In this document: positions 2,803-59,300 of the stretch, piece after piece
How the letters are laid out: the number at the start of each line of letters is the position of its first letter
Position numbering within the stretch: position 1 is the first letter of the stretch
Source of the DNA: Mytilus edulis
Taxonomy: Eukaryota
NCBI RefSeq assembly: GCF_963676685.1
Contig: NC_092347.1
Span: 41,416,001-41,480,000 of the forward strand
DNA length: 64,000 bases
Reading direction: 5' to 3'
Made by a program: the position numbers and the translations under genes
The notes under the pieces: model-generated
What the model was told of the DNA's origin: nothing
The model's input: only the letters and a program-made list of their open reading frames with translations
Databases searched by the model: none

Positions 2803-2990
2803 TCAAAATTTTAATACGCCAGAAGTGTATTTTGTCCACACAAGACCTATGTGTGACGCACAGATACAAAAGTTTGAAAGCCGAAACGAGTACAAAGTTG
2901 AACAGCATCGAGGACCAAAAGATCAAAAAGGTTGTGCCAAAAACGGCAAGGGTTTTCTGTTAAGTTACCAGAAAATCCCTATAATTTAGA
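2803..2990 (-). repeat. Older degenerate retrozyme fragment
   Basis: tacgccaga...gtgacgcacagat...tacaaagttgaacagcatcgaggaccaaaa...gttgtgccaaa aligns with the reverse complement of the 355-bp unit. Confidence 0.7.
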
Positions 2991-3684: not shown

Positions 3685-3845
3685 ATAAACTCATCATAGA
3701 TACCAGGATTAAAATTTTATCTTTGCGCCAGACGCGCGTTTCGTCTACAAAAGACTCATTAGTGATGCTTAAATCAAAATGGTAAAAAAAGGGCAAAATA
3801 ATTTGAAGCGCATTGAGGACCAAGTATTCCTAAAAGTTTTCTTAA
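3685..3845 (-). repeat. Degenerate retrozyme fragment (hammerhead core CUAAUGA)
   Basis: The reverse complement reads gcatca-ctaatga-gtcttttgtagac-gaaacgcgcgtc-tggcgc, homologous to the 355-bp unit. Confidence 0.8.
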
Positions 3846-6230: not shown

Positions 6231-8578
6231 TTAAGATATTAAAAATCCGGAAAAAGATGAAAATCCGTATCCGAATATTCTCACATTTCCGTTGTTGACA
6301 GATGGCACCAAGTTTAATATCCGTATCCATACTTGATCTCCTGTATCAAGCTGCAAAACAGTCGACTGTCGTCCAGCGTTCCAGGTGGTTGAATCTCCAG
6401 AATAAGTTCTGAAATAACCATCTCCATTTTTGACAATTTCAGTTTCCATGTCTTCACCTGCATGACTTAATATGACGACGCTGAAAAAGTATAATCCACG
6501 TATAGGCGCTCTAAAAATTCCTGAAATATGGTCAAATCCATTTCCGTAATTGGTCACCAAATTCTGAAACTTAACTGTATCTTGTAGATTCATATCTTGA
6601 TTGTGTTCAATCATTGTAGCCGAAAAACCCACAGATGGTGTCGATGGTCGAGCTGCAACAACAAAAAAAATCAACATAAGAGGCCCAAAATCTTTTGTGT
6701 TTGTTCAACTCGCATCATAAAAATAGGACAGATGCCTTATTTACTAGAATTTGATCGATTGATTTTATCAATAATTGTGTAACACCGCTTTCAACACAAA
6801 TTTGCTGATTCGTTGCGGTCCGTTTTTTATTGCTTGAGGAGGACGTCTTACCCGGAGAGAACCACCGACCTTCGACAGGAAAACTGATATTACCTAGTCA
6901 ATTAAGATTGGAGTTGAATGTGAATGCGCCTGCCTCGTGCGGGATTTGAACTTAGAACCCCAGTATTGATTAGTGATACGGTTGTTGGACTACTTAAGCC
7001 ACCAATCAATTAAATTTGAATATCAAGGAGTTTCCATAATTTATTTAAAACATCTATCTTCAATAAAATACATATGGCTGGTAAATACAATGTTCAATGC
7101 TTTTGTAATAAGTGCGTCTGGCGTACACAATCAAAATGCTGGTATCATTTTAGTATCAAGGTACATCTATTATAAATATAACGAATTGAATACATTTTTG
7201 CTTTACTCTCGGTATAACTTTCATTTGTGTTCACTTTCCATATCATACTTTTACTTTATAAAAACTCTCGAGTCAAATCCTATTAATATAACAGTTTCGA
7301 ACATTTATTATTTTGTCATCAATATGATTTGAAATACTAGTAAGCCATAAACAGGAAAATTTACAACATATGTATTTCTATAAACATATGTTTCCATACC
7401 TGTCCTACACATATGTTGTGAATGAATTCAATTGAAGTTGCCACTACTTTTTAAGTGAATATTATGATTTTTAAACAAATCTCATGAATATAAAAACGAT
7501 CTATATGACCTGCAAGATGAGATAATTGAAATTTAGCACTAAAAACTTACAATTTGCATTGTAAAAATATATATGTAAATACATTTTTTAAAAGAGTAAC
7601 GATATATAATAACGTATAATTATATAATGTTGCTCAAACAGTTAGACAATCATCATTGTGTGAACTTTGGTGGATGGTTGTTTCATTGGCATTCATACCA
7701 TATCTCCTTTTTTTATATTCCACAATTTGAAGCTATATATATATATAACAGTGTATAATTACTGCATTAGAATACATTAGGGGATACAATTTTCAAATAT
7801 TTTATGATTGAAGCAACACAATAAGTTTTTAGTTCCTTGCTTTGATAGCCGTTTCTTTGACGTATTCTCCAACTGTTAGGTTACTTGTAAATAATAGACA
7901 CCAGACACCAATCGTAAAATTCTGTATGTTTGTTCGTCAGGCCACATAACCTCTGATTTTAGGTTGACAATTCCAGATTGGTACTTTATTGAAATGACTG
8001 GCATAGGGGTTTAAAGATATTATCCTTAATATATGCAGTATGTATTGATATCCCTTTTTAAATGTGCCACTTTCCTTTCCTTTGTTTTGTTGTCTATGTA
8101 CATACAGTTCCATGATTCTTTTTAATCTCAACTGAATTAACGGGGGAAAATATTATCATTGAAGGCACAAAACATATGCCGTCTAATGTCCTCAGTGACT
8201 CTGTTGCAGGAATTAGCTAGCTCACTTCATTTTGAAAATTACAGAGAAACATATTAAGATAAATATAAAACAGCGTGGAGACCAACCTTGATTTTCTCTT
8301 TTCATTTCTTTCTCTTGTGCATTCAACTTGGCATTGGTATTCATCGTTTGTGCCTGTATACCTTTCCCCAAGGGCACATTAAGGTCAGCTTTTAATGATT
8401 TCAATTCCATCTCAACAAGATTAAATTTCTCGTGAAACGTATTATTTTGTTTTGTATAAAGGGACACTAGATCCTCAACTTTCTTAATTTCATCTTCTAA
8501 CAAAGAATCCCCTTGGAAACAGTATGAAAATCCTCCAATACACCAAATGTAGACCAGAAAGTGTTTCACGAATGTCAT
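6231..8578 (-). CDS. Secreted C1q domain-containing protein (signal peptide + coiled coil + gC1q), 2 coding exons: 8578-8287 and 6652-6231, 237 aa
   Basis: Exon 1 encodes MTFVKHFLVYIWCIGGFSYC (signal-like) and a heptad-rich segment, ending CAA G|GTTGGT (phase 1). The acceptor ttttttttgttgttgcag|CT at 6652 is phase-compatible. Exon 2 has gC1q motifs VGFSA...VKFQNLVTNYGNGFDHISGIFRAPIRGLYFFS...VLQLDTGDQVWI...SSFSGFLI-stop. Confidence 0.93.
6780..7005 (-). mobile_element. tRNA-derived SINE (diverged) in the C1q intron
   Basis: The minus strand has a B-box-like GTTCAAATCCC and the conserved SINE body motif GGTCGGTGGTTCTCTCCGGGT. A related fragment lies at ~61085-61190. Confidence 0.6.
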
Positions 8579-13902: not shown

Positions 13903-15634
13903 AATATCATTAATATTAGCGCTTTACAATGACGTTACGCACGGTTTTCGGGCTATGTTTCATTTGACCATTTCTTGATGCACAAGTAGGACAGAAACAA
14001 ATCAATTATGCATATTATAATTACTTGTCTTGGTTCATCAGTTTAATCGATATTAAATAAAACCTAATTTTAAAATATTTAATTTTATGTATTATTACAG
14101 AATTAAGCGATAAGTCCCGTGTTCATAATGCCATTTTTGCCGTGTAAGACGTAACAACAATAACTTACCATACAAATATAAACGAAAAAAAACCCAAAAA
14201 AACTACTGAAGGATTACGATGAAATTCAAACAGGTGGGATATAATATGATCATATGCATGGTGTGAAACGGTTACGATAAATGCATGTATCATGTCAGTT
14301 CGCATTCTAGTGGCCATTTTCGAAATTCCATACAGCTGTAAGATTTGAAAATTCGAGTATATAAAAATAAAAGCAAGCACTTCGATATTACAATATTTTC
14401 ATATAAGTCATAGAAAAGGTTCGCCACCTCTACATGCAAATGTAATTTTATTGAATTTTACGAACACATATTTATTTCTAAAATAGCTTCTCTCATTTTA
14501 TTTTTTTCAGTATTTTCCGTGTCTCCCTTAAATGTTACCATAGAGCCATTGTTTAAGATTTTTCAGTACCATGCTAATTTAGGGTATTTTAAATTTGTGA
14601 CTGACAAATGAACTATAAAAACAAATGTTACTACTGAAATGCGATTTTTTTAAAGATTCGTTTAAGCCTTCAATGTTAAGCAAACGCTAAATTTTTCATC
14701 AATTCCCATCAAGTTGTCCATGTCTCCCAAAAATGTTACCACGTTCAAATTGAACGTTTTTTACAAGGAACGTTAATGTAACATATATAATATATTAAAT
14801 TTTCCATAGACTAAAAGTTAAGCATTTTTGTGTCTTAAGCATTTGATACGTTCTGTTGAATGATATATTTTTTGGAGAGAGTTTCAAATATTTATTCTAA
14901 AATGTAATAAATCAACAAAAAATTTGACTTCCATCAAAGTTTTGTAAACCATGTGCTGATCTTAAAGGCGTCGAAGTTTTTGATAAATGAAAAGTTTTCT
15001 ATAAATGAAAAGTTTTCTATAATACCGAACCTTTCGACTTTGGGACCTTCAGTAAAAGATATGTTTCTGCTAGTACGAATGTTTTTTGCATACACTAACA
15101 GTTATGTCCACGCATCCGACAAATTGACGCATGTGAAAAATACTGATCCTAATTCAAGGACTGTAGATCACTTTTTAATCTTAATAAAATGAGCGATTTC
15201 AAACTGCCGTTTTCTTTCCAAAAGCTGAGAATGAAATTGAAATTATAGATCAAGCAAACAGAGGATACATATAGTAGCTGTTGCTGCCATTGACCCGAAC
15301 GAGAATTATTTTTCATTATAATGATAATCTTCTCGAAAGACTCATATTTGGAATGTAACTGTTGGTAGTACGGATAGAAAGACCCTAAAATTATTCAATA
15401 AGTAAAGATTATGAGGAAATAAATAAAATCGAGAATGGAAAGATTATTCATCAAAAATGTATAATCAGTCATGTTTACAGTCTATAATTTTTTTAAATAC
15501 GTAGTCAAACATCAAAAAGCCATATGTATTAAAAATATTGCAAAGCTTTAACGTTTTGTACAGAAGTCGGTTGAAATAAATGAAAATTACGTCGACTAAC
15601 GTTACCATTACTAAACCGAACACTGCGTAACGTA

Positions 15635-15800
15635 ATTTTGTATTTGCGACAGGCGCGCGTTTCGTCTACACATGACTCAGCTGTGACGCTCGAATATTTT
15701 TTTTTAAAAGGCCAAGTAAAGTATGAAGTTGAAGAGCATTTAGGACCAAAAATTCTAAACGTTTTGACAAATACAGCTACGGAAAGGATTTTCCTTGGTC
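15635..15800 (-). repeat. Degenerate retrozyme fragment
   Basis: The reverse complement reads gagcgtca-cagctga-gtcatgtgtagac-gaaacgcgcgcc. Both the core and the cleavage triplet are mutated. Confidence 0.75.
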
Positions 15801-26913: not shown

Positions 26914-29806
26914 AGAATGTACCTTTAACTGTATGTTTGTAAAATTTGTCAGCTTTATTATAATGTAATCTTAATTCTTTGGCAACCTGTAAACATTGTC
27001 TATCTTTATAATTTACTGAACTTTAGTCGAAGCAGCCTTTTGAACTGACACGATCCTTTAAGTTTCATTAAAGTGAAAATAAAAATCCATGCTGAAAGTC
27101 ATAGTTTGTACATGTATTCGCTCTACCAGTCGGTGAGCTCCATGTAGTTCCGCCAGTTGGTTTATGTTTTATAGGCAGGGGCCCATTCGTTGGTCACTGT
27201 CTTTCATTTCGGCATATTCGCCAGTTTCAGCAACAGAACATGTTGCACTGTATCAAACATCAGGGCCGTAAATTGCCTCCCCTGAAATTTTTGGACCCTT
27301 TTTAGACAAAAAAAAAAATTCGGGTTTTTTCCCTGTATGCAATGTACCTCCCCAGAATCCACCACTTGTTAGAATTTTGTTACATTTCAATAATTAAGCG
27401 CCTAAAAATATTGAATACAGTTGTCTGCTCTATGGTCGGGTTGTTGTCTTTTTGACAAATTCCCCATTTTCATTCTCAATTTTATAATTCTGAGTAAGAT
27501 TATAGGTGTTAAGTAAAAAAAATTTACGCTTTATACTGCTTAATGACTTCACAAGCCATTTTTACTAAGTTTTAGTGAAACAGTTTGCGAACTTAAAATG
27601 AAAGACTCCCTGACATTGCCAACTTGAGCATTTTTTGTGGTTTATCCTACTTTTTTTTGTCTGTTCAAATCGAGCTATTTTAACTTCGCTTCACAGACAC
27701 AATTTACAAACCTTAAACTGAAAATTCAAATGTAATTTATAACTAATAATTTTGATTATAAAATTCAAATTAATATAAAGTAACACTGTTTGTTTAACTG
27801 AAAGTTTTATTTGGTTAAGCTTTATCAAATGCCAAGGCGATTTTTCTGTGACCGGTTGAATCCCATCTCTTAAGCACTCCTATACCTTCAACATTGCCAA
27901 CATTGTCACTTCTATGTGTGTAGCATAGCAAGACCACACAATCTGTTTTCCGTCATTGTTGACCTGTTCCATGTTTTGAGGCGCCGTAGCGCAGAAAACG
28001 ATCTTTCACCATAGCAAGACCCAACTGGCAAGGCTAACAAAAGCAGTAGTATTTGCCTTATATTTGGGTAAAACTGCGTGTGATTGATGTCTTGCTCTAT
28101 TGTACATTTTGACCCAATCTCCTTAACCGACGTAACAGTTTTCCATCTATGAACTTCTTGTGGCAAGTCATCAGGGTATGGAATATCATTTATATACTCA
28201 TTAGCAATAGAGCCTATAATGTCTTCCGTCAACTTACAAAAGTACCGTGGTAGCAAGTAAAATCCGTAAAGCATTGGCTTAATATCGTCTGGAAATCTGT
28301 CATTAAGATGTTTAATGATGTGATCAATCAGAGGTATAAAAATGTTGATCCGATAATGCTGTTCTACAGTTTCAGCTGCTGCATTTGCCCTATGGCGTTG
28401 GCGTCCAGATGTTCGCGGTTTGTTGATCGTATTCGTAATGTCGTTCTTATTTGCGATTGTAGTTGCTCTTTCAAAAAGCCCATCAAAAGCTTCTTCTGCG
28501 TGTTCCCGTATCTCGAGAAAAGATGCAGCTAATGAACGAGCTTGAACGTGTGGTTCCACAAGATCACAGTTTTCAGATTGAAGTTCTATGGACAAGGGTC
28601 TTAGTTATCCTAGTAGGAACTGGGTTACGACAGCTACTACTAATATTTCAAAGATATTCACCAGATTTAAATATCGAACACACCCTGCAATTATGATTAA
28701 TCACCTTGTTGGTCAAATTAATAACCGGTGCTACCGCTATTAAAATAATGCATGATTTTAACCATTTTTTTTATTTCTGGTTTTTTTTTCGTATTTTTTT
28801 TTTTGGTCAGCCCGCCATAGGAGGCAACTGCCTACATGCCTCCATGTAATTTATGGCCCTGAGTTACATTCCTGTAACAACATCTTTGTCACAGTATCCT
28901 GCTCCTGTTGCGAGCGAACGGTTATGTCAAATTACTGTACGTCACAGTTCAATTTGGGGTCCTAATTGTGGTCCACGTTCAAGTCATGACGTCGATATTT
29001 TTTTTTAAAACAAATTGTATCAAATGGGATGGAAAAAAATCACAAATTTTATTGCAGGATAAAGACAACAACTATTTGGTGTCTTTAGATATCAGCTGTC
29101 TTTGCATTCGGTTCCAAACAGGAGTAATAGCTCGCTAAAGCCCGTATTACACCTGTTTCGTAGCCTCGTACAAATACACCTGATATTTAGAGACACTAAA
29201 CAGTTATTGTCGGATATTTAAAATTTGCGTTTCTTGGCACCACCATAAATTTAGAATATGTGGAGTTATGACAACCGACCTTCACACACAAAAAAACAAA
29301 CTGACAAACACAAAATTTCTCTTTCCGAAGAGTTAATTTGAACCGGCAAATGCTCCCGAAGTATGTTAGATGTTCAAATTTGCGTTAGAAAATTTTTGTT
29401 CTTCAGTATATAATATATACTTTTTTTCTCTCGATTATATCATGTTTAGTATAAAATAATCCAGATACGTTTCATGAAATTACGCCGGCCCCATACCTTT
29501 TCAAAAATCCAGGATCCAACCCTGAATATAATGAAACGTTAAACTGTTGATCATACTTCGACAGTCAAATAATAGCTGTAAGTATCTAAATAATGTTTTT
29601 TCATTTCATAAATAGTATTGTTGTGTTGTATTAACGCATGTAATTAAACAGTTAACATAAAGCCCCCCCCCCCCCCCCCCAGCCCTTCCCCCCCCCCCAA
29701 AAAAAGTCAATAAAAATCAATTAATATACAGAAAAAATAACAATAACATTACCCAGTCTTAATGTATATGGTGAGATTCATTACGTAATATAATAAGTTA
29801 AACAAT
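26446..29806 (+). repeat. Direct segmental duplication, copy X (~3.36 kb)
   Basis: Colinear with 34237-37407, with scattered SNPs/indels and a ~165-bp block (about 29240-29405) absent from the second copy. Confidence 0.9.
27261..28861 (-). mobile_element. Internally deleted hAT transposon with C-terminal transposase pseudogene (hATC dimerisation domain), copy 1
   Basis: TIR CAGGGCCGTAAATT / AATTTATGGCCCTG. ORF 27912-28595 contains KPRTSGRQRHRAN and LLALPVGSCYGERSFSALRRLKTWNRSTMTENRLCGLAMLH. Confidence 0.85.
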
Positions 29807-34236: not shown

Positions 34237-37200
34237 CAGAGTATCGGGTATACATGTATGTCGAACACGCTACAAGGCGCTTAAAAACTTTCAGAGTCAT
34301 TGGAAGCTTATGGAGACACCAGACTGACGTATCAATCAGACTGTAGAGCTTTGTGCGGGATTAGTGGAGCGACAGGTTGAACTTTGTCAGGAACTGTAAT
34401 ACAACAAATAAAACTGACTAATATCTAACCATCTTACTATATTTATGTTATCAATCTGGAATCGAATGAACTTGTATAACTCTCAGTCCTCCCTTTTCTA
34501 GCCCGCCCTTTTCTAGCCTCTGTCAGCAATGATAACACAAAAGAAATTGTCATATACATGTAGGATGTTACATAATGAGACTCTAGATAAATGTGATTTG
34601 AAGTAACCAAGACGTGCAGAATTTTACCTGTTTAAATCTATAATCAATGTTTTGACACCGTCCCCAAATTTAAAGTCTAATTTGTCAACCTCAGCGTCGA
34701 AAATGTACCTTTAACTGTATGGTTGTAAAATTTGTCAGCTTTATTATTATGTAATCTTAATTCTTTGGCAACCTGTAAACATTCAGTTGTCTATCTTTAT
34801 AATTTACTGAACTTCAGTCGAAGCAGCCTTTTGAACTGACACGATCCTTTCATTAAAGTGAAAATAAAAATCCATGCTGAAAGTCATCGTTTGTACATGT
34901 ATTCGCTCTACCAGTCGGTGAGCTCCATGTAGTTCCGCCAGTTGGTTTATGTTTTATAGGCAGGGGACCATTCGTTGGTCACTGTCTTTCATTTCGGCAT
35001 ATTCGCCAGTTTCAGCAACATAACCTGTTGCACTGTATCAAACATCAGGGCCGTAAATTGCCTCCCCTGAAATTTTTGGACCCTTTTTAGACAAAAAATG
35101 ATTTATTTTTTTTCGGGTTTTTTCCCTGTATGCAATGTACCTCCCCAGAATCCACCACTTGTTAGAATTTTGTTACATTTCAATAATTAAGCGCCTAAAA
35201 TATTGAATACAGTTGTCTGCTCTATGGTCGGGTTGTTGTCTCTTTGACAAATTCCCCATTTTTATTCTCAATTTTATAATTCAGAGTAAGATTAGGTGTT
35301 AAGTAAATTGTTTTTACGCTTTATACTGCTTTATGACTTAACAAGCCATTTTTACTAAGTTTTAGTGAAACAGTTTGCGAACTTAAAATGAAAGACTCCC
35401 TGACATTGCCAACTTGAGCATTTTTTGTGGTTTATCCTACTTTTTTTTGTCTGTTCAAATCGAGCTATTTTAACTTCGCTTCACAGACACAATTTACAAA
35501 CCTTAAACTGAAAATTCAAATGTAATTTATTACTCATAATTTTGATCATAAAATTCAAATTAATATAAAGTAACACTGTTTGTTTATACTGAAAGTTTTA
35601 TTTGGTTAAGCTTTATTTTTCTGTGACCGGATGAATCCCATCTCTTAAGCACTCCTATACCTTCAATATTGCCAACATTGTCACTTCTATGTATGTGTAG
35701 CATAGCAAGAACACACAATCTGTTTTCCGTCATTGTTGACCTATTCCATGTTTTGAGGCGCCGTAGCGCAGAAAACGATCTTTCACCATAGCAAGACCCA
35801 ACTGGCAAGGCTAACAAAAGCAGTAGTATTTGCCTTATATTTGGGTAAAACTGCGTGTGTTTGATGTCTTGCTCTATTGTACATTTTGACCCAATCTCCT
35901 TAACCGACGTAACAGTTTTCCATCTATGAACTTCTTGTGGCAAGTCATCGGAGTATGGAATATCATTTATATACTCATTAGCAATAGAGCCTATAATGTC
36001 TTCCGTCAACTTACACAAGTACCGTGGTAGCAAGTAAAATCCGTAAAGCATTGGCTTAATATCGTCCGGAAATCTGTCATTGAGATGTTTAATGATGTGA
36101 TCAATCAGAGGTATACAAATGTTGATCCGATAATGCTGTTCTACAGTTTCAGCTGCTGCATTTGCCCTATGGCGTTGGCGTCCAGATGTTCGCGGTTTGT
36201 TGATCGTATTCGTAATGTCGTTCTTATTTGCGATTATAGATGCTCTTTCAAAAAGCCCATCAAAAGCTTCTTCTGCGTGTTCCCGTATCTCGAGAAAAGA
36301 TGCAGCTAGTGAACGAGCTTAAACGTGTGCTTCCACAAGATCACAGTTTTCAGATTGAAGTTCTATGGACAAGGGTCTTAGGTATCCTAGTAGGAACTGG
36401 GTTATGACCGCTACTACTAATATTTCAAAGATATTCACCAGATTTAAATATCGAACACACCCTGCAATTATGATTAATCACCTTGTTGGTCAAATTAATA
36501 ACCGGTGCTATTAAAATAATGCATGATTTTAACATTTTTTTTATTTTCTGGGGTTTTTTTTTTGTATTTTTTTTTTTTATCAGCCCGCATTAGGAGGCAA
36601 CTGCCTACATGCCTCCATGTAATTTACGGCCTTGAGTTACATTCCAGTAACAACATCTTTGTCACAGTATCCTGCTCCTGTTGCGAGCGAACGGTTATGT
36701 CAAATTACTGTACGTCACAGTTCAATTTGGGGTCCTAATTGCGGTCCACGTTCAAGTCATGACGTCGATATTTTTTTTAAAATAAATTGTATCAAATGGG
36801 ATGGATAAAAATCACAAATTTTATTGCAGGATAAAGACAACAACTATTTGGTGTCTTTAAATATCAGCTGTCTTTGCATTCGGTTCTAAACAGGAGTAAT
36901 AGCTCGCTAAAGCCCGTATTACATCTGTTTCTTAGCCTCGTACAAATACACCTGATATTTAGAGACACTAAACAGTTATTGTCGGATATTTAAAATTTGC
37001 GTTTTTTTGGCACCAGTATATAATATATACTTTTTTCTCTCGATTATATCATGTTTAGTATAAAATAATCCAGATACGTTTCATGAAATTACGCCGTCCC
37101 CATACCTTTTCAAAAATCCATGATCCAACCCTGAATATAATGAAACGTTAAACTGTTGATCATACTTCGAAAGTCAGATAATAGCTGTAAGTACCTAAAT

Positions 37201-44300: not shown

Positions 44301-47300
44301 TAACATCATTTTTTTTTTTAATTTCCTACTCATTTTTTTAAATAGAATATTAAAATATGCATAACGTTGTAATGCAAGTTTTGTGCTTTAATTTTTTTTT
44401 TTCAATTCCAGAGCAAATTATAGCAGCACATGAAAAATTGAGGGAAGTTGAAGAAAAAACAAAGTCAAAAGAAAATGACTTTAAAACGTTTTCAGGTAAG
44501 ATAATATACCTGTAGTAACATCACTTGTGTTTTGCCAAAATAAAGTGATTACAAATTACAGATTTTTTATTTACTAAGCTATATATAAAAGTAGGGGTCA
44601 AAAAATTTTCTTTTTCACACATTGTTTTTCTAAGATTTAAACAATCTGTGCTATCACTTGTTATAAAAGTATTGTCAATGCAAGGTGGTTTTTTTTTTTT
44701 TGATTTAGAGGCACTTATTAAATAATTATATTCAAATACATAAAGAGAAACATTTACAAATGTACATGTAAAGGACATAATGTATGCCTTTTTTAAATTA
44801 ATCGATAAAATATCGGTCATATGACTGCTTATAAAAAGTAAAGAATGTCTTTAGAACTTTAGTATAAGAAATTGATCTACTTTGTCATTGTTTGAAAGTA
44901 TTAAAAGGAAATTACAACTGCTTTGTGATCTTTGTCTTTGTTTGAAGGGTATTTAATGGAACTATTCAATCGTCACAACTCGGCCGATTCCGTACCTCAT
45001 CTAACGAGACGGAAGCGGAGTCACCCGAGGATTGCCGATTGTGGAACTATTCTTATTCTGTATGCCTATTACACGACTTTTCTTACAAAATAAGATTGTC
45101 ATAACTTAAATATTTTTGACATGAATTCATTGGAAGTATATAATAACTTGTGTGTTGAAAAGATAATATGGTTGGTCTCAGTGTAACAAATAAGATACAT
45201 ACACATTGTTGCACTTTTTTGGACGGGTTATGCCAAATAAAAAAGTCGGCTTATGGTATGGTGATGTCAGGTGTCTGTTATTATGGAAAATTCATATTCT
45301 CGTTGAATAGTTCCAAATTTTGCAAACCAACCGTCATTTTTTTGTTTGTTCCATTATTTTTGGTTATTGCAAAAGAAGTTAAGCGTTAAATCTTTGTAAT
45401 TGAATTCATCTAATAATGAGCCAGTACAGAATAATTAATTTTACGATTAAGCACATGTTGTAAGCATATGTAAATATATGAGTTATCACCTAGTTCACAT
45501 GCAAAATTTCTCGTGTCAAACCCGTACCAAATATAATGATTTCTTAAAGTGTTTCCATATCATTTTGTGTTCGGGATGTTCGGTTTTGTTCCGTATATAT
45601 ATGAATATGAGCAATATATTTGTTTTTCGTTTTCCTCGTAATACCTAGTTTCATGTGGATTTTTTCACGTGTGCTTGTGTGAAATATTTGTACAGTCTCC
45701 CCTAAGATGTACGTTTGAAAATCTTATTCCATATTTTACAACATGTCTCTTATTTTTTTTCAGACAAATTAAAAACACAAGAGAGTTCACTGAAGTCCTG
45801 TAATGATCAATTGGCTAGTGCTAAAACAGAACTCAATCAAACCACTGAAAGACACAAACGAGTAGCAGATGAGCTTGGTAACTGACGAAATTATTTACAA
45901 ACCCAATGTATTAAATTTTAAGACATAAAAAAATATTGTTTATGATGTGTTGTCAACTTTTGGAGAAAAAAAGTCGTGTATCTCTTTTTCTCAATATGGC
46001 AGCGGTCCTGTTGAGTGTTTATTTTTCATTTAAACTGAGAGCAATGTGAATAATCAGTCGAACATATATAAATATCTAATATATAAATGTGAATACATTA
46101 TTTATGTAATTCCAAAATCTGAATGCAAAATATAATTTAGAAGAATGGTGTTTTTATATCAAAGTGTAGTCTTATTTGTTTGGATTTATTTTAGCACGAT
46201 TAGACGAAACCCATTCTCTCAACAGACATTTACAACAGATGCTGACCAAGGAGAACAAAACAAATGGCAAGTTTCTTTCACATTAGTATATGTTGTTTTT
46301 TGTTTTATTTTTTAACAAACTCCGAAACAATGGTAGCGTCGTCTTTGCTAAGTTACATTGAAAGTTTAACAAAGCAACGTCACCGCTGTTTTGGAGTTTG
46401 ATTTCCAAACTTAGAATCATTTGCCATTGCTTTCGAATTTTATTAATTGAATTTTGAGTCCTCAGTTCTCTTTAAATTCGTAATTTATTTAGCCTTTTTA
46501 AACTATTTTTTGTAGGCGTCACTAATGAGTATTTCGTAGATGAGACTAAAAGCGCGTTAAGTGTATAAAATTTTAAGCCTGATATGCATGATGAGCTTAT
46601 TGATAAGAGGCTAGAACGTGATAAAGACATAACACCTGAAAACATTTGTATTGATGTAATACATGTATTTGATCAGAAAGTTCGATTTAGTCTTTCAATA
46701 TGATAAGGATTTTAATTGTTTAATTTTATGCAGAAAGAAATGCTGAATGTTAATGTTATTCTGTAAGGGACTTACAGGTAACATCACTGGTTGCTTTTGA
46801 AAACAAAACTTTGAAATTCATACTAGGTTCATTATTATTTTTTTTGTAGAGAAAAAACAACTGGAATTAAACGCACAAAATGTAAAAATCACTTCACTAG
46901 ATGCAGATCGAAGGCAAAAAGAAGGTATTTCTAATGTAAACGGAATCTTCCGACTTTGACGAGAAGAATATTTAGGAGGGGGTAATATGATAAACGATTC
47001 AATGGAATAACAAAAGACATGTTCATGTCGAACCTAGAGATTTCACAAACCTGTTGCATATGATAATATAGTCTATTTATGTGTTTGCTTCAATGATTGA
47101 GGTCTGTGGGCCATACATTGACACCCCTTAATTGTAAATACTACCTTAAAGGTAACTATATAAGTTTTATTAAAAAACTGTCCTAGATAAGAAGGGATGA
47201 CAGCGTTCATAAAAGTGTTTTAACCAGTGCAACATTGATTATGGAATATCCGTTTAAAATTTTCCTTAGAGTTCATTATATTTGTGATTTTCTTTTATAC

Positions 47301-50300
47301 ATAAGGTCTAGATCTGGCATATCAGTAACTTCTAGTACTCCCTTGTTAATGTGTGTATCATTGTCATTTAGCTTAGTTTCTATTGTTACCTATTTTGAAA
47401 TCGAACTAGGACTTCTTTTAAATTGAGTTTTATTGTGCGTATTGCTGTGTACTTCTTTTAAATTGAGTTTTATTGTGCGTATTGCTGTGTACTTCTTTTA
47501 AATTGAGTTTTATTGTGAGTATTGCTGTGTGTTTCTTTATTCTACATTGGCTAGATGTACAAGGGGAGGGTTGAGATCTCTCAAAAAGTATTTAACCCCG
47601 CTGAATGTTTATGTCTATCCCAAGTCAGGGACCATTGTTAGTCGTGTATGTCGTTTTTTAAATTTAGTTCATTTATATACTTTGGAGTTTGGTATTACGT
47701 CCATGTTCAATGAACTAGTACACATTTTAATTTAGGGGCCATCTTAAGCCCACCTACGGATGCGGGAATTTCTCGCCATGTTGAAGACCCAGTGATGGCC
47801 TTGGACTGTTGTTTGTGCCATTCTCTATTTCTATTTTCAATTTTATGTCTCTCCCTCTCCTCGGAAATAATAACAAAAGTTGTCATAAGTTGTTGTCTGC
47901 CATACATGTTGTGGTCGGCAAAGGTTTATGCAGGCCATTGCCTTATTCCTTATTTCATTGTAACTTGATTTTTAGAACTTACTTTATGGCAAGGGTTTCA
48001 ACTAATGTAGGAGGCTGCTCATTAACCTTTATTTGTATACAATCCTGTTACTTTGTTTTGATGTTGTTTAAATGACAATCATACCACATCTGCCTATTCT
48101 TATATCGTAAAAATCATTGCATACTCGAGTTTCGTAGTAAAAAGTATAATTTGGTAGGTCATATAAGTGGTTGGGACATTAGGAGCATATTCGCCATCCC
48201 CTGTGAAACTGGTATTTCATAACTACCGACTTACCACGAAGAGTTGGACAATGCATTTGACTTAAAGGGTCGGTATCCCTCTTAGATCAGCTGTGAACCT
48301 TTATAGTTTTTTTTACCCAACCTTTTTATAATTAATTTTATTCTTTTTTCATCTACATTTATTGTAAATTTGTATTTATATATTAATGGTCATGAATGCT
48401 GTTTACTATTTTCTTTCCATTTTTTTTTATTTGTAGAAAAGATAAAACAACTGACAACAGAATTGCGTCAAGTTCGTGAAAGTCACGAACAATATAAGAG
48501 ACAAATAGAAACTGCATTAGGTAATTTTACTTTTAAGGCTCCTTGATGTATTCAAGCTGCATCTTACATAAATACATGTTTATGTTTTCTATAGAAATTT
48601 GGGTCAAGAAGAAAGTCGTTTTATTTTATTAAACTTCTTCGACTCTTGCTAAATTGAGTCTTTGTATTCCAATAATGTATTATCTGTGTAATCAGATATG
48701 ATGGTCTAAAATAGAATGTCTTGCCTTTTTTTTTTCTTTTTTTTTTTTTTTATTAAAAATCACTTTTTAGCGATACATATTTTTTGTCTAGAATCTACAG
48801 ACTATTTACTTGTCGTTTGAGCTGGAACTTTAAAATAATTTCAATTCATTCCAACAGAATTTGTTAAGCAAGGTATATATCAAAGCATGTCATTTGCAAA
48901 TAAGTCACTATTGTACAATACACTCTTAGAGTTGTGAAACTTAAAAAAAAAAGTATATAGAATAAACTGTCAACTGATTTTTATAAACTATTTTATATTA
49001 AGTACGATAAAGTGAGAGGATATTAAAATCGACTTAACAATAAAATATACATGCAACATACGTTACTAATTTACACAATGCGAGGGGGCAACTGCCTTAT
49101 GACTCCCACGACTATCCTCAATGCAAATCATTATTTATTTCAATGTTTTGTCTATAGGTAATCTACAAAGCAAGCTACAACTTCAAGAAAGAACTATCAA
49201 AATAAAGGAAGAGGATGCTAAATCTAAAAAAATGCACATTGATAAGTTACAAGAGAATAAACAGCAATTGGAAGGTAACCATTGAGAGAGAGAGTCACTC
49301 AGAGATTTTATAATGCTAGTCCATTGCTAAGATTACTATAAAGGAATAGATATCGCCGAACGTTTTGATGCGAATTTCCCCCCGTTTTTTATTAAAAACA
49401 AATATGTATTTCTTCCAACTAAATGTCCCAACCATTCAACCTTGATTCTAGTTATGAAAACGAAAGTTTATTATATTTTGTTTGATGTTATTTAAAATAT
49501 CTTCTTGTCAGAACTTTCAAGAATAAATACAGGATTGATTGAACTTCACTGTTACTTTTATGTTTTATTAATTTTTTTTAATTTCAAGTAATCCAAACCC
49601 ACACCTTAAAGTAGTTTTATCATCAATTGAAAAAATATAGTGCAAATAATTAAGGATATAACAAATGTATACTTAATGTTGTTGTCCTTTTCTTGAATAT
49701 TCGGAAAATTCCAGTACCCAATGGTACTAGTTAACGGTCAATACACTAGTATAAACAATACTTATCAAAACATTGTTGAAATTGTGTCCATAAGTCGTCG
49801 TCTGGATTATACTTAATATACTTTACGCTTCAACATATGTCTTATATTAATACAAAATAACCTGAAAAGGAAATGCAATAAAGTACAATTATTGTCTGGC
49901 GTATAAAATTATAATCCTGGTACTTTTGATAACTATTTACACAACTGGGTCGATGCCACTGCTGGTGGACGTTTCGTCCCCGAGGGTATCACCAGCCCAG
50001 TAGTCAGCACTTCGGTGTTGACATGAATATCAATTATATGGTCATTTTTATAAATTTTCTGTTTACAAAACCTTGAATTTTTCGAAAAACTAAGGATTTT
50101 CTTACCCCAGGAGTAGATTTCCTTAGCCGTATTTGGCACAACTTTTTGGAATTTTGGATCCTCAATGCTCTTCAACTTTGTATTGATTTGGCTTTTTAAC
50201 TATTTTGATCTGAGCGTCACTGATGAGTCTTATGTAGACGAAACGCGCGTCTGGCGTATAAAATTATAATCCTGGTACTTTTGATAACTATTTACACAAC

Positions 50301-53300
50301 TGGGTCGATGCCACTGCTGGTGGACGTTTCGTCCCCGAGGGTATCACCAGCCCAGTAGTCAGCACTTCGGTGTTGACATGAATATCAATTATATGGTCAT
50401 TTTTATAAATTTTCTGTTTACAAAACCTTGAATTTTTCGAAAAACTAAGGATTTTCTTACCCCAGGAGTAGATTTCCTTAGCCGTATTTGGCACAACTTT
50501 TTGGAATTTTGGATCCTCAATGCTCTTCAACTTTGTATTGATTTGGCTTTTTAACTATTTTGATCTGAGCGTCACTGATGAGTCTTATGTAGACGAAACG
50601 CGCGTCTGGCGTATAAAATTATAATCCTGGTACTTTTGATAACTATTTACACAACTGGGTCGATGCCACTGCTGGTGGACGTTTCGTCCCCGAGGGTATC
50701 ACCAGCCCAGTAGTCAGCACTTCGGTGTTGACATGAATATCAATTATATGGTCATTTTTATAAATTTTCTGTTTACAAAACCTTGAATTTTTCGAAAAAC
50801 TAAGGATTTTCTTACCCCAGGAGTAGATTTCCTTAGCCGTATTTGGCACAACTTTTTGGAATTTTGGATCCTCAATGCTCTTCAACTTTGTATTGATTTG
50901 GCTTTTTAACTATTTTGATCTGAGCGTCACTGATGAGTCTTATGTAGACGAAACGCGCGTCTGGCGTATAAAATTATAATCCTGGTACTTTTGATAACTA
51001 TTTACTCACTGATGTGCAGTTTCAATACGACAATAACCAATAAACATAATCGAGACAATATGAAAATAGTTAGTGTTGATTGATGAAAACATATAGAAAC
51101 ATATCACTTAGATCCCAAAAACTGGTACATGACGCTATAATCGATAAAGTTTACATAGGATTGCATTAACTATTTGAGATCGGTTGCTTGAAATTAAAAT
51201 ACACACATGACATACGTCTTGCAGTCTGGATAGCGGCCGAGAAAAGAATAGAAATTAAAAAAGAAAACTTTAATAACAAAAAAAAAGCTGGATTATAGGT
51301 ATAGTACAAAAGTTACAAAGGGTCAGGTATAATAGATCATTCATGAAAGCTGTTTATTTAGTTCTTTAACGTGTATATTGCATTCTGTACCATTTGTTTG
51401 AGATGTGTCTCGAGAAGGTATAACTAGTAGAGCTCAACATTCTGAACATTACTTTCTCTATTTGTAACGGTTTTCAAAATTATAGACAACACTTTACATT
51501 TTATTGTTTGCCATATCGTCATGGTTGGCAGACGGGGCTATCGGACACATTTTATAAACTAGATACCCCAATAATGACTGTGGCCAAGTTTGTTTGAATT
51601 TGGTTTAGTAGTTTCGGATGATACAATTTTTGTAAAAGTTAACGCACGACGACGACGACGACGACGACAGACGACGACGACGACGACAGACGACGGACGC
51701 CTATTGGTCAAGGTAACAGATGATGTAATGTTGAGCTCGACCAGTTGTCCATATACGTAAAAAAAAACTTTGACGACATTTTATGAGTTATAACTGGTAT
51801 ACCAGAATAGTATATTTCATATAAGTAAACAATTGTCATATTTTATTCTATAGGTCAAATAATACAGCTGAAAATGGATTTCAGGCAGAAGGAAATGGAA
51901 CTACAAAAAGAATCCTCAGAACATCAGCGTAAGTTTATTTAGACTTTATTAGTCTTATTTACTGTGCTTTTCCTGAAGGATTTAGCTTATCTCAATAGAA
52001 ATGGCTCAAAAAATAAAGTTTATCAAATTTCAGTTTGAATTCATCTCCCAGAAACTGTTCAACTGTTAAAATACGATAAAAACTTGCTTCAGTGACCTGT
52101 CGTTATAGTATGGAGTGAGTGCAGTGAAATAAAATGTATTAATAAGTATCTATATTCAGTTAGATTTTTATTCATGGAATTCAATTCAAAAACAGTATGA
52201 CATACTATAATATGATATCCTAAATAAATTTATAAATAATGAGTTAAAAAATTTGTGTTGGGTCAATATAATTTATAATGTATAGTTTTGTTTTGCAACA
52301 GCATGCTTTTCTTAAACTTTAAGAATAGTCAAATTATTCGTTTTATAGTTAGGAATAGGAGAGTTTCACCGAATTATATGGGTTTTTAGGTAGTATTACA
52401 TTCAATGTAAAAATTAACTGCTTTTTAAAAGCCTTTCGGCATTTCCTGTCATGAATCCTATTTTAAACTTTTTTTCCATTTAAGAATATCTAGTAAATCT
52501 ACTTTCATCGTCATTAGATTTTGTAATGGATATACTCTATATGTATGGGCATATCATGCGCTCTTGTCACTGCTTTCTTCTCTTTTTATTAGTATTAGTA
52601 TCATTATTTACAGTTAAAAAATCTTCGTATAACACTAGAACACACCGTGACTAAACTAGTACAAGTACTTTCTCCTTTTATTTTGGCTGGAATTTTAATT
52701 TATAGTCGTTTTTGTCATATGAAAAAATCATGCTGATTTTAATGTGCATATACATGTAATTGTGTCTGTTTTCAAAATCTCCAACTGTGAACTCGTCCCA
52801 GATCATGGCTTTCTTACTACAACCGGAAACTACATGTGACATATACTATAGGAATCGGTATCGGATTCGACCTGTTAATTATTGAAAAAAATTATTGTTT
52901 GAAAAATAAACAGATGCTCGTTTTTATAATGTCTCATTGCTTTATCTTAGATTTTTATCATTTGTTAAATAATTTCAGAAACACATTTACAGCTGGTACA
53001 ACGATTTGAAGAAGTGGTGCAGTTAACTTCACAATTAAAATCCAAAGAAAGTGAACTAGAAGTTTTACAAGGTACAAATATAGAAATGCAACCTACTGCA
53101 ATGTGTTGTATTACTGGGAGGATCCTATCACCAGTATTTTACTGGTTATTAGAAATACGACGGTTCAACAAGTAAAACAGGGACTAATAACCCATACGGG
53201 TATATAAATAAACTAATTATAATAGATACCGGAATTAAAATTTTATACGCGTTTTTGCTACAGAAGATTCACCAGTGACGCTCGAATCTGAGTTATACCT

Positions 53301-56300: not shown

Positions 56301-59300
56301 AATTGGTAATCATTGTATGTAGTTATGTTTCCTTTAATATTAAAGCTTAAATTACTGTACGTATGTACATAAAAACTCGTAAAAATTTGCTCGATTGTAA
56401 TTTAATTAGTCTTTGATGAGTTTGAGCATAAATTGAGTCGATGCCACTACTGGTTGACGTTTCGTTACCAAAAGTTGACAAGCCAAAAAAATCAGCACTT
56501 TTGTGCTTACATGAAATACCACTGATATCAGAGTATGTTCATTTTCTGTGACTTTAATATTTATGAAATGATGAAGTATGTAAAACTCTAAGATATATTT
56601 ACCCGAAGGTAAAGATTGCATCAGCTGTATTTTGGCACAACTTGTTGGTGATTACTACTTAGTTACTTCGTAATAATTGAATTAATTTTGCAACGAATGA
56701 GTTGTCTGGCGTAACATATAAAAGCCTGGTATTTCGTTACATCCTTACATGTATAACTGGCAGTCGATCTGGAACTACCGAAAGGCTTATTACGTTGCTA
56801 ATTTAAGAAGAATAACTTAAAACTTAAAGTCCTTAAAGACGTGTTAAATCCAAAAATTGTCATCTATAATATCTAGTGAAGAAAAACATTATTGTTTAAA
56901 CATGTTAAAGTAAGTTTCAACTTGTACAGATTTATTAACTTTTACTCTGTCACTCAGTGATATTTCATGTTAACACACACTTAATGATCATTGGGCTGTT
57001 GGTATAACGAAGAAATTGAGAATAGGAAAATGCATCGATCGATCGTTCGTACAGTACAGTTATTTAAAATGATTGACTTAGTCGTTTACAATTATTTATC
57101 AGGTGTGTCTATTTGAATACCCCTTGTCTATTGTAGATGAAGTAAACGCTTTGAACAACAAACTTAAAGAATTTTTTGGTAAGTACATTTACCGACACTG
57201 GCTGATGGTTTTATTGTTTATTATTCATTTGTTTCTTTTTAAGATTCATATAGACAAAAATGTGTCGTAGACAGTTCAGTATACATTCCGTGCAAACTAC
57301 GATCCCGGGTTTTTTTATGCATTTTTTGTTTCTGTTCAGGACTTTTTAATGACAGTTAGTGTTTTAAATAAATTTCTATTTGTACGGAGCACCAATGTTG
57401 GCGCCACTAGCGACACAAAACGGCTTACTTTTCCGTAGAAAGATTTGTATAGCTCAATCTTACAGAGTAGATAAGATAAGGAGAATTACAGGATTTATCA
57501 AAACTATTTTACCAGAAACACACCAACGCCCGACTCCTCTGGTAAAACCAAGACGAACAAACTAAGATCAATAACAACGAGCAATATATGATATAATTAG
57601 CCTCACTTGATCATTCAAGATGTCAACTATGAACTGCTGTCAAGAGCGAGGTTTAGCTAGCTATATAACTAGCATTAACTCACCATTTTCTTCGGAAAAT
57701 GCCTGTTCCAAGTCAGGAATATACTGTTTGTTTTTGCTTGTTCCGTATGTTGATAGCGTTTGATTTTGTCAATTTGAGGACTTCCCCTTTTTTGTATTTG
57801 CCTTTGGAGCTCGATATTTGTGTCGTATTTGTGATATAGTCACGGAATGTTTACTCTTAAATGTTTTATGAACTAAACTATTTAAGATTTCTGTTGATTT
57901 ATTTAATAGGGAAAGTGCAATCTCTGGAAACAGCTTTAGTAGAGTCTCATAGGGAATTATGGGAAGCAAGAGCTCATGTTAGTCCACAAACAGGTAGGCT
58001 TGCAATATTTTTATATATGGAAATATAATTTCTAATTATTTAAAATCATAGTCAAATCGACATTTTAAGTCTGTTGTCTGAATGAGTTTTATCAGTTATC
58101 TTTCGTTACCATAACGATATGTCATATGATTCATTAACGAAAGAGTATATTTATAGTTTTGATCGTTTTACAAAGTGTCAGCTGAGACTTATAACAGAGA
58201 CTTAGCTGATAGGTTTTTAAAAAAACAAAATCGACTAACGAAAGTATCATTCCACTTTTGATATGTTTGCTACTCTCGTTTTTATACGCCCGTCAAAATT
58301 TTGACGAGACGTATTATGGTATACAAATGTCCGGTGTCCGTCCGTCCGTCCGTCCGTCTGTCTGTCCGGCGTGAACATTTCGCACCGTAACTTGAGAATG
58401 ACTTATCTAAATTTCATGAAACTTAATATAGTTGTTCTTTATAATGGTCAAATGATCTGTATACTTTTTGGTGAAAATAAGATTTAAACTTTTTGAGTTA
58501 CGGCACTTTGTAACTAAAACAGGGGTGTGTTTTTTTTCACATGTTGCACCGTATCTCAAAAACGATTCTTGATTATTGCTTAAAACTTTACACACTTCTT
58601 AGTTATATTAATCTTAATATCTGTATACTTTTTGGTGATGATTCAAAATTTCATTTTTGAGTTATTGAGTATTTTGTAAAAAAGGGGGAGGGTTTTTTAC
58701 ATGTCGCGCCGTATCTCAAAAACGATTTATGACTATGGCTTAAAACTGTACACACTTCTTTGTTATATTAATCTAAAGATCTGTATACTTTTTGGTGATG
58801 ATTCAAAATTTCATTTTTGAGTTATTGAGTATTTTGTAAAAAAGGGGGAGGGGGTTTTTAAATGTCGTGCCGCATCTCAAAAACGATTTATGATTATTGC
58901 TTAAAACTTTACACACTTCTTTTTTATATTAATCTAAAGATCTGTATACTTTTTGGTGATGACTCAAAATTTCATTTTTGAGTTCTTGAGTATTTTGTAA
59001 AAAAGGGGAGGGTTTTTTTTACATGTTGCGCCGTATCTCAAAAACAATTTATGATTATTGCTTGAAACTGTACACACTTCTTTGTTATATTAATCTAAAG
59101 ATCTGTATACTTTTTGGTTTGATTCAAAATTTTATTTTAGTGATATTTGTAAAAAAAAAAAAAACAGGGTGGGGGGGGGGGGGGGGTTTCACATGTCCCG
59201 CCGTGTCTCAAAAGCAATAAATGGTAATTTCTTAAAACTTTCTCAGAAACTATTTATGATTATTGCATAAAACGTCCACACAAGACGTCGGGCGTATCAT

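What the first reader, a model, noticed from the sequence alone, without database searches (positions are those of the whole stretch)
49894..49900. Array 5' end coincides with the ribozyme cleavage site
Seen: identity to the unit begins at GTC^TGGCG (49894-49897), within 3 nt of the scissile bond. It ends 44 nt into a fourth unit (51005), and no clear TSD is visible. Inference: the insert is a cDNA made by multi-round reverse transcription of a circular or self-cleaved RNA, with RT stopping at the ligation/cleavage junction. DNA-level tandem amplification would not be expected to respect this site. Unit identity suggests a recent event.
Basis: partly seen in the sequence, partly recalled or inferred. 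Interest (0 to 1): 0.7.

Follow-up and report, generated by a model that had tools for sequence, protein, structure and literature searches.

The report
Retrozyme array: fixed end is 3'
This is one of thousands of copies of a known kind of self-cutting RNA repeat, likely from a mussel; its start at the ribozyme cut site is mostly coincidence, because starts in this family are scattered, while nearly all copies share a fixed other end beside a predicted RNA hairpin, where a Penelope-type (likely Naiad) enzyme probably begins copying an uncut or circular RNA.

Summary
Coordinates confirmed; the mechanism drawn from them is not. The array is three identical 355-nt type I hammerhead units plus a 44-nt tail, starting 3 nt before the cut site. 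5' ends of 55 other arrays of at least one unit are uniform around the monomer (KS p=0.70; 1 of 55 near the cut, 1.1 expected). Genome-wide, starts at the cut window (143 of 12,587) are about as frequent as in a window 7 nt downstream (122); about 97% of copies run through the site. A small peak lies at -3, not at the cut. The fixed end is the 3' end: 72 of 74 position-ordered copies stop at +39..+49, just before a predicted hairpin that also follows the 3' end of a Naiad element in this genome (one checked). Best reading: Penelope-type target-primed copying that starts inside an uncut, likely circular RNA and stops at random. Both junctions occur in other individuals, so the insert is not private. 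The scan reported the fixed 3' end and Naiad hairpin before, on other DNA of this genome.

The parts
49894..51005 (+). Retrozyme tandem array, 3 x 355 nt plus 47 nt, units identical
49894..49896 (+). GTC at the 5' junction: positions -3..-1 relative to the predicted cut; copied through the junction or target microhomology (cannot be told without the empty allele)
   Evidence: 32 of 70 family starts in this window begin at -3; in L104 the same bases are part of a 7-nt junction repeat
49897..50251 (+). Monomer 1, cut site to cut site (predicted self-cleavage product / circle)
50252..50606 (+). Monomer 2
50607..50961 (+). Monomer 3
50962..51005 (+). 3' tail, +1..+44; the family's fixed end (inferred start of reverse transcription)
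   Evidence: 72 of 74 copies end at +39..+49; 36 of 40 top arrays end at +40..+50
50214..50257 (+). Type I hammerhead 1 (stem I 6 bp with two G-U pairs, CUGAUGA core, 3-bp stem II, GAA, 2-bp stem III with GCGC loop, C at the cut); predicted cut after 50251
   Evidence: descriptor match; not found by Rfam at gathering score; not the MFE fold of the isolated stretch
50569..50612 (+). Type I hammerhead 2, identical
50924..50967 (+). Type I hammerhead 3, identical
49941..50004 (+). Predicted long hairpin +45..+108 (repeated in each full unit, absent from the terminal tail, which stops just before it); similar to the hairpin behind the 3'-end position of a Naiad
   Evidence: fold -29.3 kcal/mol; BLAST E=0.003 to L183; folds and alignment
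49158..49274 (+). Candidate host exon upstream (AG..GT, one open frame); unverified
   Evidence: sequence, translation; no RNA laid on it
51854..51928 (+). Candidate host exon downstream (AG..GT); unverified. If both are real the array lies in sense in an intron
   Evidence: sequence, translation

Best explanation
The array is a copy of an abundant non-coding hammerhead repeat whose copies share a fixed 3' end and have scattered 5' ends; it was likely inserted by a Penelope-type (probably Naiad) reverse transcriptase that would bind a predicted hairpin, begin copying just upstream of it, run through the cut site of an uncut, likely circular RNA for three turns, and stop at a near-random place that here happens to be 3 nt past the cut site. 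Shown: the end distribution, the read-through of the cut site in about 97% of copies, identical units, the Naiad-like hairpin in one Naiad, sense-strand RNA across the cut site and unit boundary. Inferred: target-primed initiation, the helper, the circular template, cleavage at this bond.
For: 3' ends: 72 of 74 position-ordered copies at +39..+49 (all carry an exact +1..+37 by selection, so an end before +37 could not be seen, but ends beyond +49 could) and 36 of 40 top BLAST arrays at +40..+50. 5' ends: uniform in 55 arrays; 2 of 74 near the cut, both 44-nt tail-only copies. Genome-wide junction counts: cut window 143 of 12,587, window +5..+8 122 (denominator taken as equal, 134 vs 135 in loci), -35..-32 32 of 11,643, +54..+57 26 of 5,385. 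Long copies are 13 of 70 cut-window starters but 12 of 32 in the +5..+8 control. Short junction repeats of 5 nt or more in 28% of 104 copies against 10% in shuffled pairs. A 1012-aa ORF with N-terminal GIY-YIG and the CxC and DKA motifs named for Naiads in PMC8557442 has a 194-nt pLTR whose 3' end falls directly before a hairpin alignable to the unit's; it was the only one of 30 GIY-YIG loci with a long frame after the nuclease and the only one with this match. Internal initiation defining a tail is shown in vitro for another PLE, and hammerhead cleavage was not needed there (PMC11167929). Focal units share two rare variants (+47, +224; 8% and 4% of 78 other units) and the nearest other unit differs at 4 sites; the +224 motif occurs at only 4 other loci, none identical. 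RNA runs X23, X24: first mates about 5:1 on minus (sense RNA if the library is of the usual stranded kind), no pile-up of ends, 554 and 665 reads across the unit boundary. Mussel retrozyme RNA is mostly circular (PMC7229834).
Against: The cut window is not quite background: estimated 0.75%/nt (0.62-0.91) against 0.56 (+5..+8), 0.49 (+54..+57) and 0.29 (-35..-32), and -3 holds 32 of 70 starts against 19.5 expected by my model (p=0.001), though not significantly more than the matching position in the +8 control (9 of 32, p=0.13). Circle versus uncut multimer versus later DNA expansion is not resolved at this locus; many older arrays have within-array differences near the between-array level. Only one Naiad was examined, the BLAST match is 34 nt at E=0.003, and two sequences cannot show covariation. 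The family also resembles hammerhead-bearing sequence near C-terminal-nuclease PLE loci (L182, L202, L203), so another PLE may be the ancestor or helper. No empty allele was seen in 4 runs on the left and 2 on the right. RNA reads cannot be assigned to this locus or told from host read-through.
Confidence: 0.72

Rival explanations
1. One reading: the RT copied a circular or partly cleaved RNA several times and stopped at the ligation/cleavage junction, which is a preferred stop for the family.
For: The focal start is at -3; the cut window has an estimated stop rate 1.3 to 2.6 times the three control windows, with a peak at -3 (1.2%/nt); 13 long copies start there among 70 aligned.
Against: 5' ends of 55 arrays uniform; more long copies start at +5..+8 (about 34) than in the cut window (about 20); run-off from a 5'-OH end predicts +1, which is not enriched within the window (19 of 70, p=0.52) and the focal copy holds 3 bases from beyond the cut; in the focal subfamily 7 of 2,021 (about 1.4% after correction) equals background (0.33%/nt); no pile-up of RNA ends.
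Confidence: 0.12
2. A shorter insertion (1.13 units, with a 47-nt terminal repeat) was made by retrotransposition and later grew to 3.13 units at the DNA level by unequal exchange or slippage, which keeps both ends and gives identical units.
For: Explains identical units and no parent locus equally well; local amplification by unequal crossover is proposed in bioRxiv 10.64898/2026.07.22.740005; 1.1-unit copies with the same start exist (L114, L148, L237); DNA-level amplification of a copy inside a larger repeat is seen on C8.
Against: Still needs a first template longer than one monomer; needs two expansion steps within a time too short for any mutation; thousands of dispersed 1-5-unit copies all keep the same 3' end.
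Confidence: 0.12
3. The template was a linear, uncut multimeric read-through transcript of a longer parent array, copied once from an internal start and 5'-truncated.
For: PLE RT used uncleaved RNA in vitro (PMC11167929); RNA reads from tails into many different flanks exist (loose ends at 51002-51004); long arrays exist (L069, 11 units).
Against: Needs a parent with four identical units; none in this assembly (the assembly is one haplotype set and the parent may be lost); the mussel hammerhead cleaves co-transcriptionally and circles dominate (PMC7229834).
Confidence: 0.1
4. The perfect unit identity is partly an assembly or polishing effect.
For: 0 differences in three units while most arrays show some.
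Against: Other arrays keep unit differences in the same assembly; flanks differ by only 0-2 bases per 0.6-1 kb between individuals, so zero unit differences is expected. It would not affect the end statistics.
Confidence: 0.05

Closest known systems
Non-LTR retrozymes of Mytilus galloprovincialis (Cervera and de la Pena 2020, PMC7229834; parts 1-4 of 6 read, supplement unreadable)
   Same: About 350-nt AT-rich non-coding tandem unit with one type I hammerhead, thousands of copies, expressed; model of circle copied as multimers by a PLE-like RT.
   Different: That paper does not map insertion ends or name the helper. Sequence identity to its clones could not be tested. Host as Mytilus is inferred (1.37 Gb, 14 large contigs, unit size), not shown.
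Penelope-like element 'tail' and internal initiation (Poseidon from Anolis, Frangieh et al. 2024, PMC11167929; parts 1-2 of 4 read)
   Same: 3' ends fixed at an internal site a few tens of bases downstream of the hammerhead cut, AT-rich targets, cleavage not required for insertion, no RNA ends at the cut site.
   Different: That element is autonomous and copied from a linear RNA in vitro; here no ORF, and the unit repeats head to tail.
Naiad PLEs (Craig et al. 2021, PMC8557442; passages read)
   Same: 5' truncation, partial tandems, abundant in bivalves; one Naiad here ends before a hairpin like the unit's.
   Different: Naiads lack canonical hammerheads and encode EN-RT; the unit has a hammerhead and no ORF. 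Non-autonomous partners with 3'-end similarity are described there for Chlamys, not for mussel retrozymes.
Vertebrate non-LTR retrozymes as PLE derivatives (bioRxiv 10.64898/2026.07.22.740005; parts 1-3 of 5 read, supplements closed)
   Same: Argues that retrozymes are non-autonomous PLE derivatives.
   Different: No mollusc, no end mapping, link through pLTR similarity in Xenopus; favours local DNA amplification for tandems.
R2/RTE-type elements with a 5' self-cleaving ribozyme (5' processing role stated in PMC7761336 passage; details recalled)
   Different: Tested here and not met: 5' ends are not set by the cut.

Membership tests
Metazoan non-LTR retrozyme | Tandem non-coding unit of 150-450 nt, GC under 50% | tested here: met
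   355-nt unit; no ORF of 120 aa over the array; region 35.5% GC
Metazoan non-LTR retrozyme | Type I hammerhead with intact core in every unit | tested here: met
   Descriptor match, units identical; Rfam gave no hit at gathering score and the isolated MFE fold is not the hammerhead
Metazoan non-LTR retrozyme | High copy number, dispersed | tested here: met
   11,643 exact core 21-mers; 12,587 tail motifs
Metazoan non-LTR retrozyme | Self-cleavage at the predicted bond | not testable with these tools
   Shown for a M. galloprovincialis repeat in PMC7229834; no pile-up of read ends in two RNA runs
Metazoan non-LTR retrozyme | Expressed as circular monomer RNA | tested here: inconclusive
   Sense-biased RNA crossing the cut and unit boundary; circles cannot be told from tandem transcripts
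Mytilus galloprovincialis retrozyme family of Cervera and de la Pena | Sequence identity to the published clones | not testable with these tools
   Supplement unreadable
PLE-mobilised non-autonomous element | Fixed 3' end (tail) with variable 5' truncation | tested here: met
PLE-mobilised non-autonomous element | 3'-end signal shared with an autonomous PLE | tested here: inconclusive
   One Naiad shares a hairpin at the matching position; n=1, E=0.003
Elements whose 5' end is set by ribozyme cleavage (R2-like) | 5' ends of insertions concentrated at the scissile bond | tested here: not met
   1 of 55 arrays; about 3% of passes; +1 not enriched
Naiad (for L284, not the window) | N-terminal GIY-YIG, CxC, DKA, pLTR | tested here: met
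   motifs as named in PMC8557442; Pfam did not report the RT domain, so RT rests on motifs read by eye

The most novel reading that the evidence does not exclude
Hammerhead-less Naiad retrotransposons mobilise hammerhead retrozyme circles: Naiad RT recognises a borrowed hairpin, starts inside the ligated circle and rolls through the sealed cut site for several turns, with only a weak pause at hammerhead stem III (-3). The genome's copies would then be a natural record of rolling-circle target-primed reverse transcription by a eukaryotic retroelement, and name the helper and signal for a family whose helper is unknown in print.
Probability: 0.5. Interest if true: 0.65.

Novelty: new member of a known kind. 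Interest (0 to 1): 0.33.

Why it matters
The finding as posed (RT stops at the ribozyme site) does not hold, so this locus is an ordinary young retrozyme copy. The test is still useful: it shows that the ribozyme cut does not set insertion ends, that nearly all copies were made from RNA continuous across the cut, and that the fixed end lies at a hairpin shared with a Naiad. That turns the open question of which enzyme spreads animal retrozymes, and from which RNA form, into a direct in vitro test. I found no paper mapping retrozyme insertion ends or linking them to Naiads in five searches, but the scan's own notes already say it for other loci.

Tried and rejected
Rfam scan: no hit. MFE fold of the isolated hammerhead did not give the ribozyme fold (z 0.83). 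First end mapping by best local alignment locked on neighbouring older copies in 4 loci and was redone anchored. From only 9 rows the -3 start looked very strong (6 of 8 events); the wider set reduced it to 32 of 70. A bump of 5' ends near whole turns, suggested by the first sample and the +54..+57 and +5..+8 counts, was not seen in 55 arrays (Rayleigh p=0.96); left open as weak. Higher-order periodicity in nine long arrays: none evident. Empty allele: not found; short-read contigs stop inside the repeat and cannot count units. Rows dropped: for the cut window only the first 100 of 143 rows are listed; 26 were dropped by eye (22 duplicates, 4 internal deletions), 74 aligned, 4 more internal; for the +8 control the first 43 of 122 rows, 3 dropped by eye, 40 aligned, 8 internal; -35..-32 rows were only de-duplicated by eye (28 of 32); +54..+57 23 of 26 after alignment. 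For the 55-array test the focal copy, 2 duplicates and 4 irregular loci (L058, L093, L097, L102) were left out. Detection probabilities (0.256, 0.194) come; effective window widths are my hand estimates, so per-nt rates are approximate. Supplements of PMC7229834 and of the 2026 preprint were not seen and may hold junction examples or the family sequence.

Full report
Observation. The window is G000:C4:41416001-41480000 of a 1.37-Gb genome. Positions 49894-51005 are three identical 355-nt units plus 47 nt. Each full junction carries a type I hammerhead on the plus strand (descriptor match; no Rfam hit); the predicted cut follows 49896 in the array's frame, and I number from 49897 as +1. The array starts at -3 and ends at +44 of a fourth unit. 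The best junction repeat is 3 nt, so no TSD can be called.

Family. An exact +1..+37 motif occurs 2,021 times, its degenerate form 12,587 times, the hammerhead core 11,643 times. Unit size, composition, hammerhead and abundance match the mussel non-LTR retrozymes of PMC7229834; the host as a mussel is my inference, and identity to the published clones could not be checked.

Test 1, position-ordered sample. The first 100 hits form 74 loci on C1, all fetched and aligned from the hit outwards. 72 of 74 end at +39..+49; 5' ends are spread over the whole monomer; 2 of 74 start near the cut, both 44-nt tail-only copies. The mean stop rate in 70 regular loci is 0.33% per nt.

Test 2, arrays like the focal one. 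All 40 arrays of the BLAST search were mapped: 36 of 40 end at +40..+50, 5' ends scattered. Joining those with the C1 copies of at least one unit, without the focal copy, 2 duplicates and 4 irregular loci, gives 55 arrays: 1 near the cut against 1.1 expected, KS p=0.70, Rayleigh p=0.96.

Test 3, genome-wide junction counts. I counted places where a conserved 21-mer is preceded by A/T at three positions that are G/C in the unit. Cut window: 143 of 12,587; focal subfamily 9 rows, 7 with the 37-mer of 2,021. Controls: +5..+8, 122 (denominator assumed equal, 134 vs 135 in loci); -35..-32, 32 of 11,643; +54..+57, 26 of 5,385. After alignment (70 true of 74, and 32 true of 40) estimated rates are 0.75, 0.56, 0.29 and 0.49% per nt. 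So about 3% of passes stop in the cut window and about 97% go on upstream. 57 of 70 starters are tail-only; long copies are more common among the +5..+8 starters (12 of 32) than at the cut (13 of 70). Within the window, starts fall at -3/-2/-1/+1 as 32/15/4/19 against about 20/19/13/19 expected (p=0.002). Run-off from a self-cleaved 5' end predicts +1, which is not enriched (p=0.52). The excess at -3 is real against my model (p=0.001) but not against the matching control position (p=0.13). It lies at the edge of the palindromic stem III, so a weak pause or a microhomology effect is possible; either way these copies include bases from beyond the cut.

How it likely works. A fixed 3' end with ragged 5' ends is the pattern of target-primed copying that starts at an internal site, as shown in vitro for a Poseidon PLE, where the start sites define the genomic tail and cleavage was dispensable (PMC11167929). 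Short junction repeats are enriched (5 nt or more in 28% of 104 copies against 10% shuffled). The fixed end sits just before a predicted hairpin, +45..+108. Earlier scan notes pointed to Naiad; I tested this on 30 GIY-YIG loci. One (L183/L284) has an N-terminal nuclease, a 1012-aa ORF with Naiad motifs and a 194-nt pLTR, and it alone matches the hairpin (E=0.003). Its 3' end maps, in the upstream pLTR copy, directly before a hairpin that aligns with the unit's and keeps the outer stem with different letters. This is one element and supports, but does not prove, Naiad as helper. Since copying starts at about +41 and a cleaved linear monomer offers only 41 nt upstream of that, every longer copy needs an RNA continuous across the cut: a ligated circle or an uncut multimer.

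Circle or not. The three focal units share two rare variants, the nearest other unit differs at 4 sites, and several young arrays are more alike within than to any other (e.g. L302, L109, L296). The rare +224 motif occurs at 4 other loci, none identical, so no parent array exists in this assembly. That fits multi-turn copying of one monomer circle, and circles dominate mussel retrozyme RNA in PMC7229834. It fits equally a 1.13-unit insert later expanded at the DNA level, which keeps both ends; the 2026 preprint favours such local amplification. Two RNA runs show sense-biased reads that cross the cut and the unit boundary with no pile-up of ends, but cannot tell circles from tandem transcripts.

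Age. The left junction is in contigs of 4 of 4 runs laid (three organism labels, four studies; one may be the assembly's source) and the right junction in 2 of 2 DNA runs; flanks differ by 0-2 bases per 0.6-1 kb, and contig depth in X7 suggests both haplotypes carry it (inference). So it is sequence-young but shared, and no empty allele was seen.

Verdict. The locus is an ordinary young member of a known kind. The more interesting anatomy, the fixed 3' end at a Naiad-like hairpin, I did not find in print but the scan has reported it on other DNA of this genome. Interest 0.33.

Noticed in passing
window 2807-2951, 3693-3838, 15633-15785, 53211-53283 (minus); 46449-46584, 56431-56648 (plus): Six older, truncated relatives of the unit at 69-79% identity in the same window.
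   Followed up: no
G000:C8 75.50-81.45 Mb (L238): One 45-nt tail-only copy recurs in 19 rows with the same flank, many about 1.22 kb apart: amplified at the DNA level inside a larger tandem/segmental repeat.
   Followed up: partly
L097, L058, L093, L102, L069: Irregular copies: a permuted exactly-one-unit copy (5' 206, 3' 204), arrays with internal deletions, and an 11-unit array that has lost its tail.
   Followed up: no
window 50970, RNA runs X23 and X24: About 200 reads per run leave the unit at +9 into one alternative tail sequence, i.e. a second expressed hammerhead family with the same core; similar sequence lies near PLE loci L182 and L203.
   Followed up: no
window 51523-51621: Fragment of another very high-copy repeat, with RNA reads biased to the opposite strand, next to an ACG microsatellite at 51646-51695.
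   Followed up: no
window 6234-6704 (minus); 27915-28604 and 35587-36318 (minus): A C1q-domain frame and two hAT transposase remnants.
   Followed up: partly
window 49158-49274 and 51854-51928 (plus): Exon-like stretches with open, charged, coiled-coil-like frames on either side of the array.
   Followed up: partly
window 58533-59138: 161-bp tandem repeat, 3.8 copies, 91%.
   Followed up: no
G000, GIY-YIG search: Many PLE nuclease hits come in close inverted pairs and several lie in open frames of 780-1050 aa, so intact PLEs of several clades are present.
   Followed up: partly
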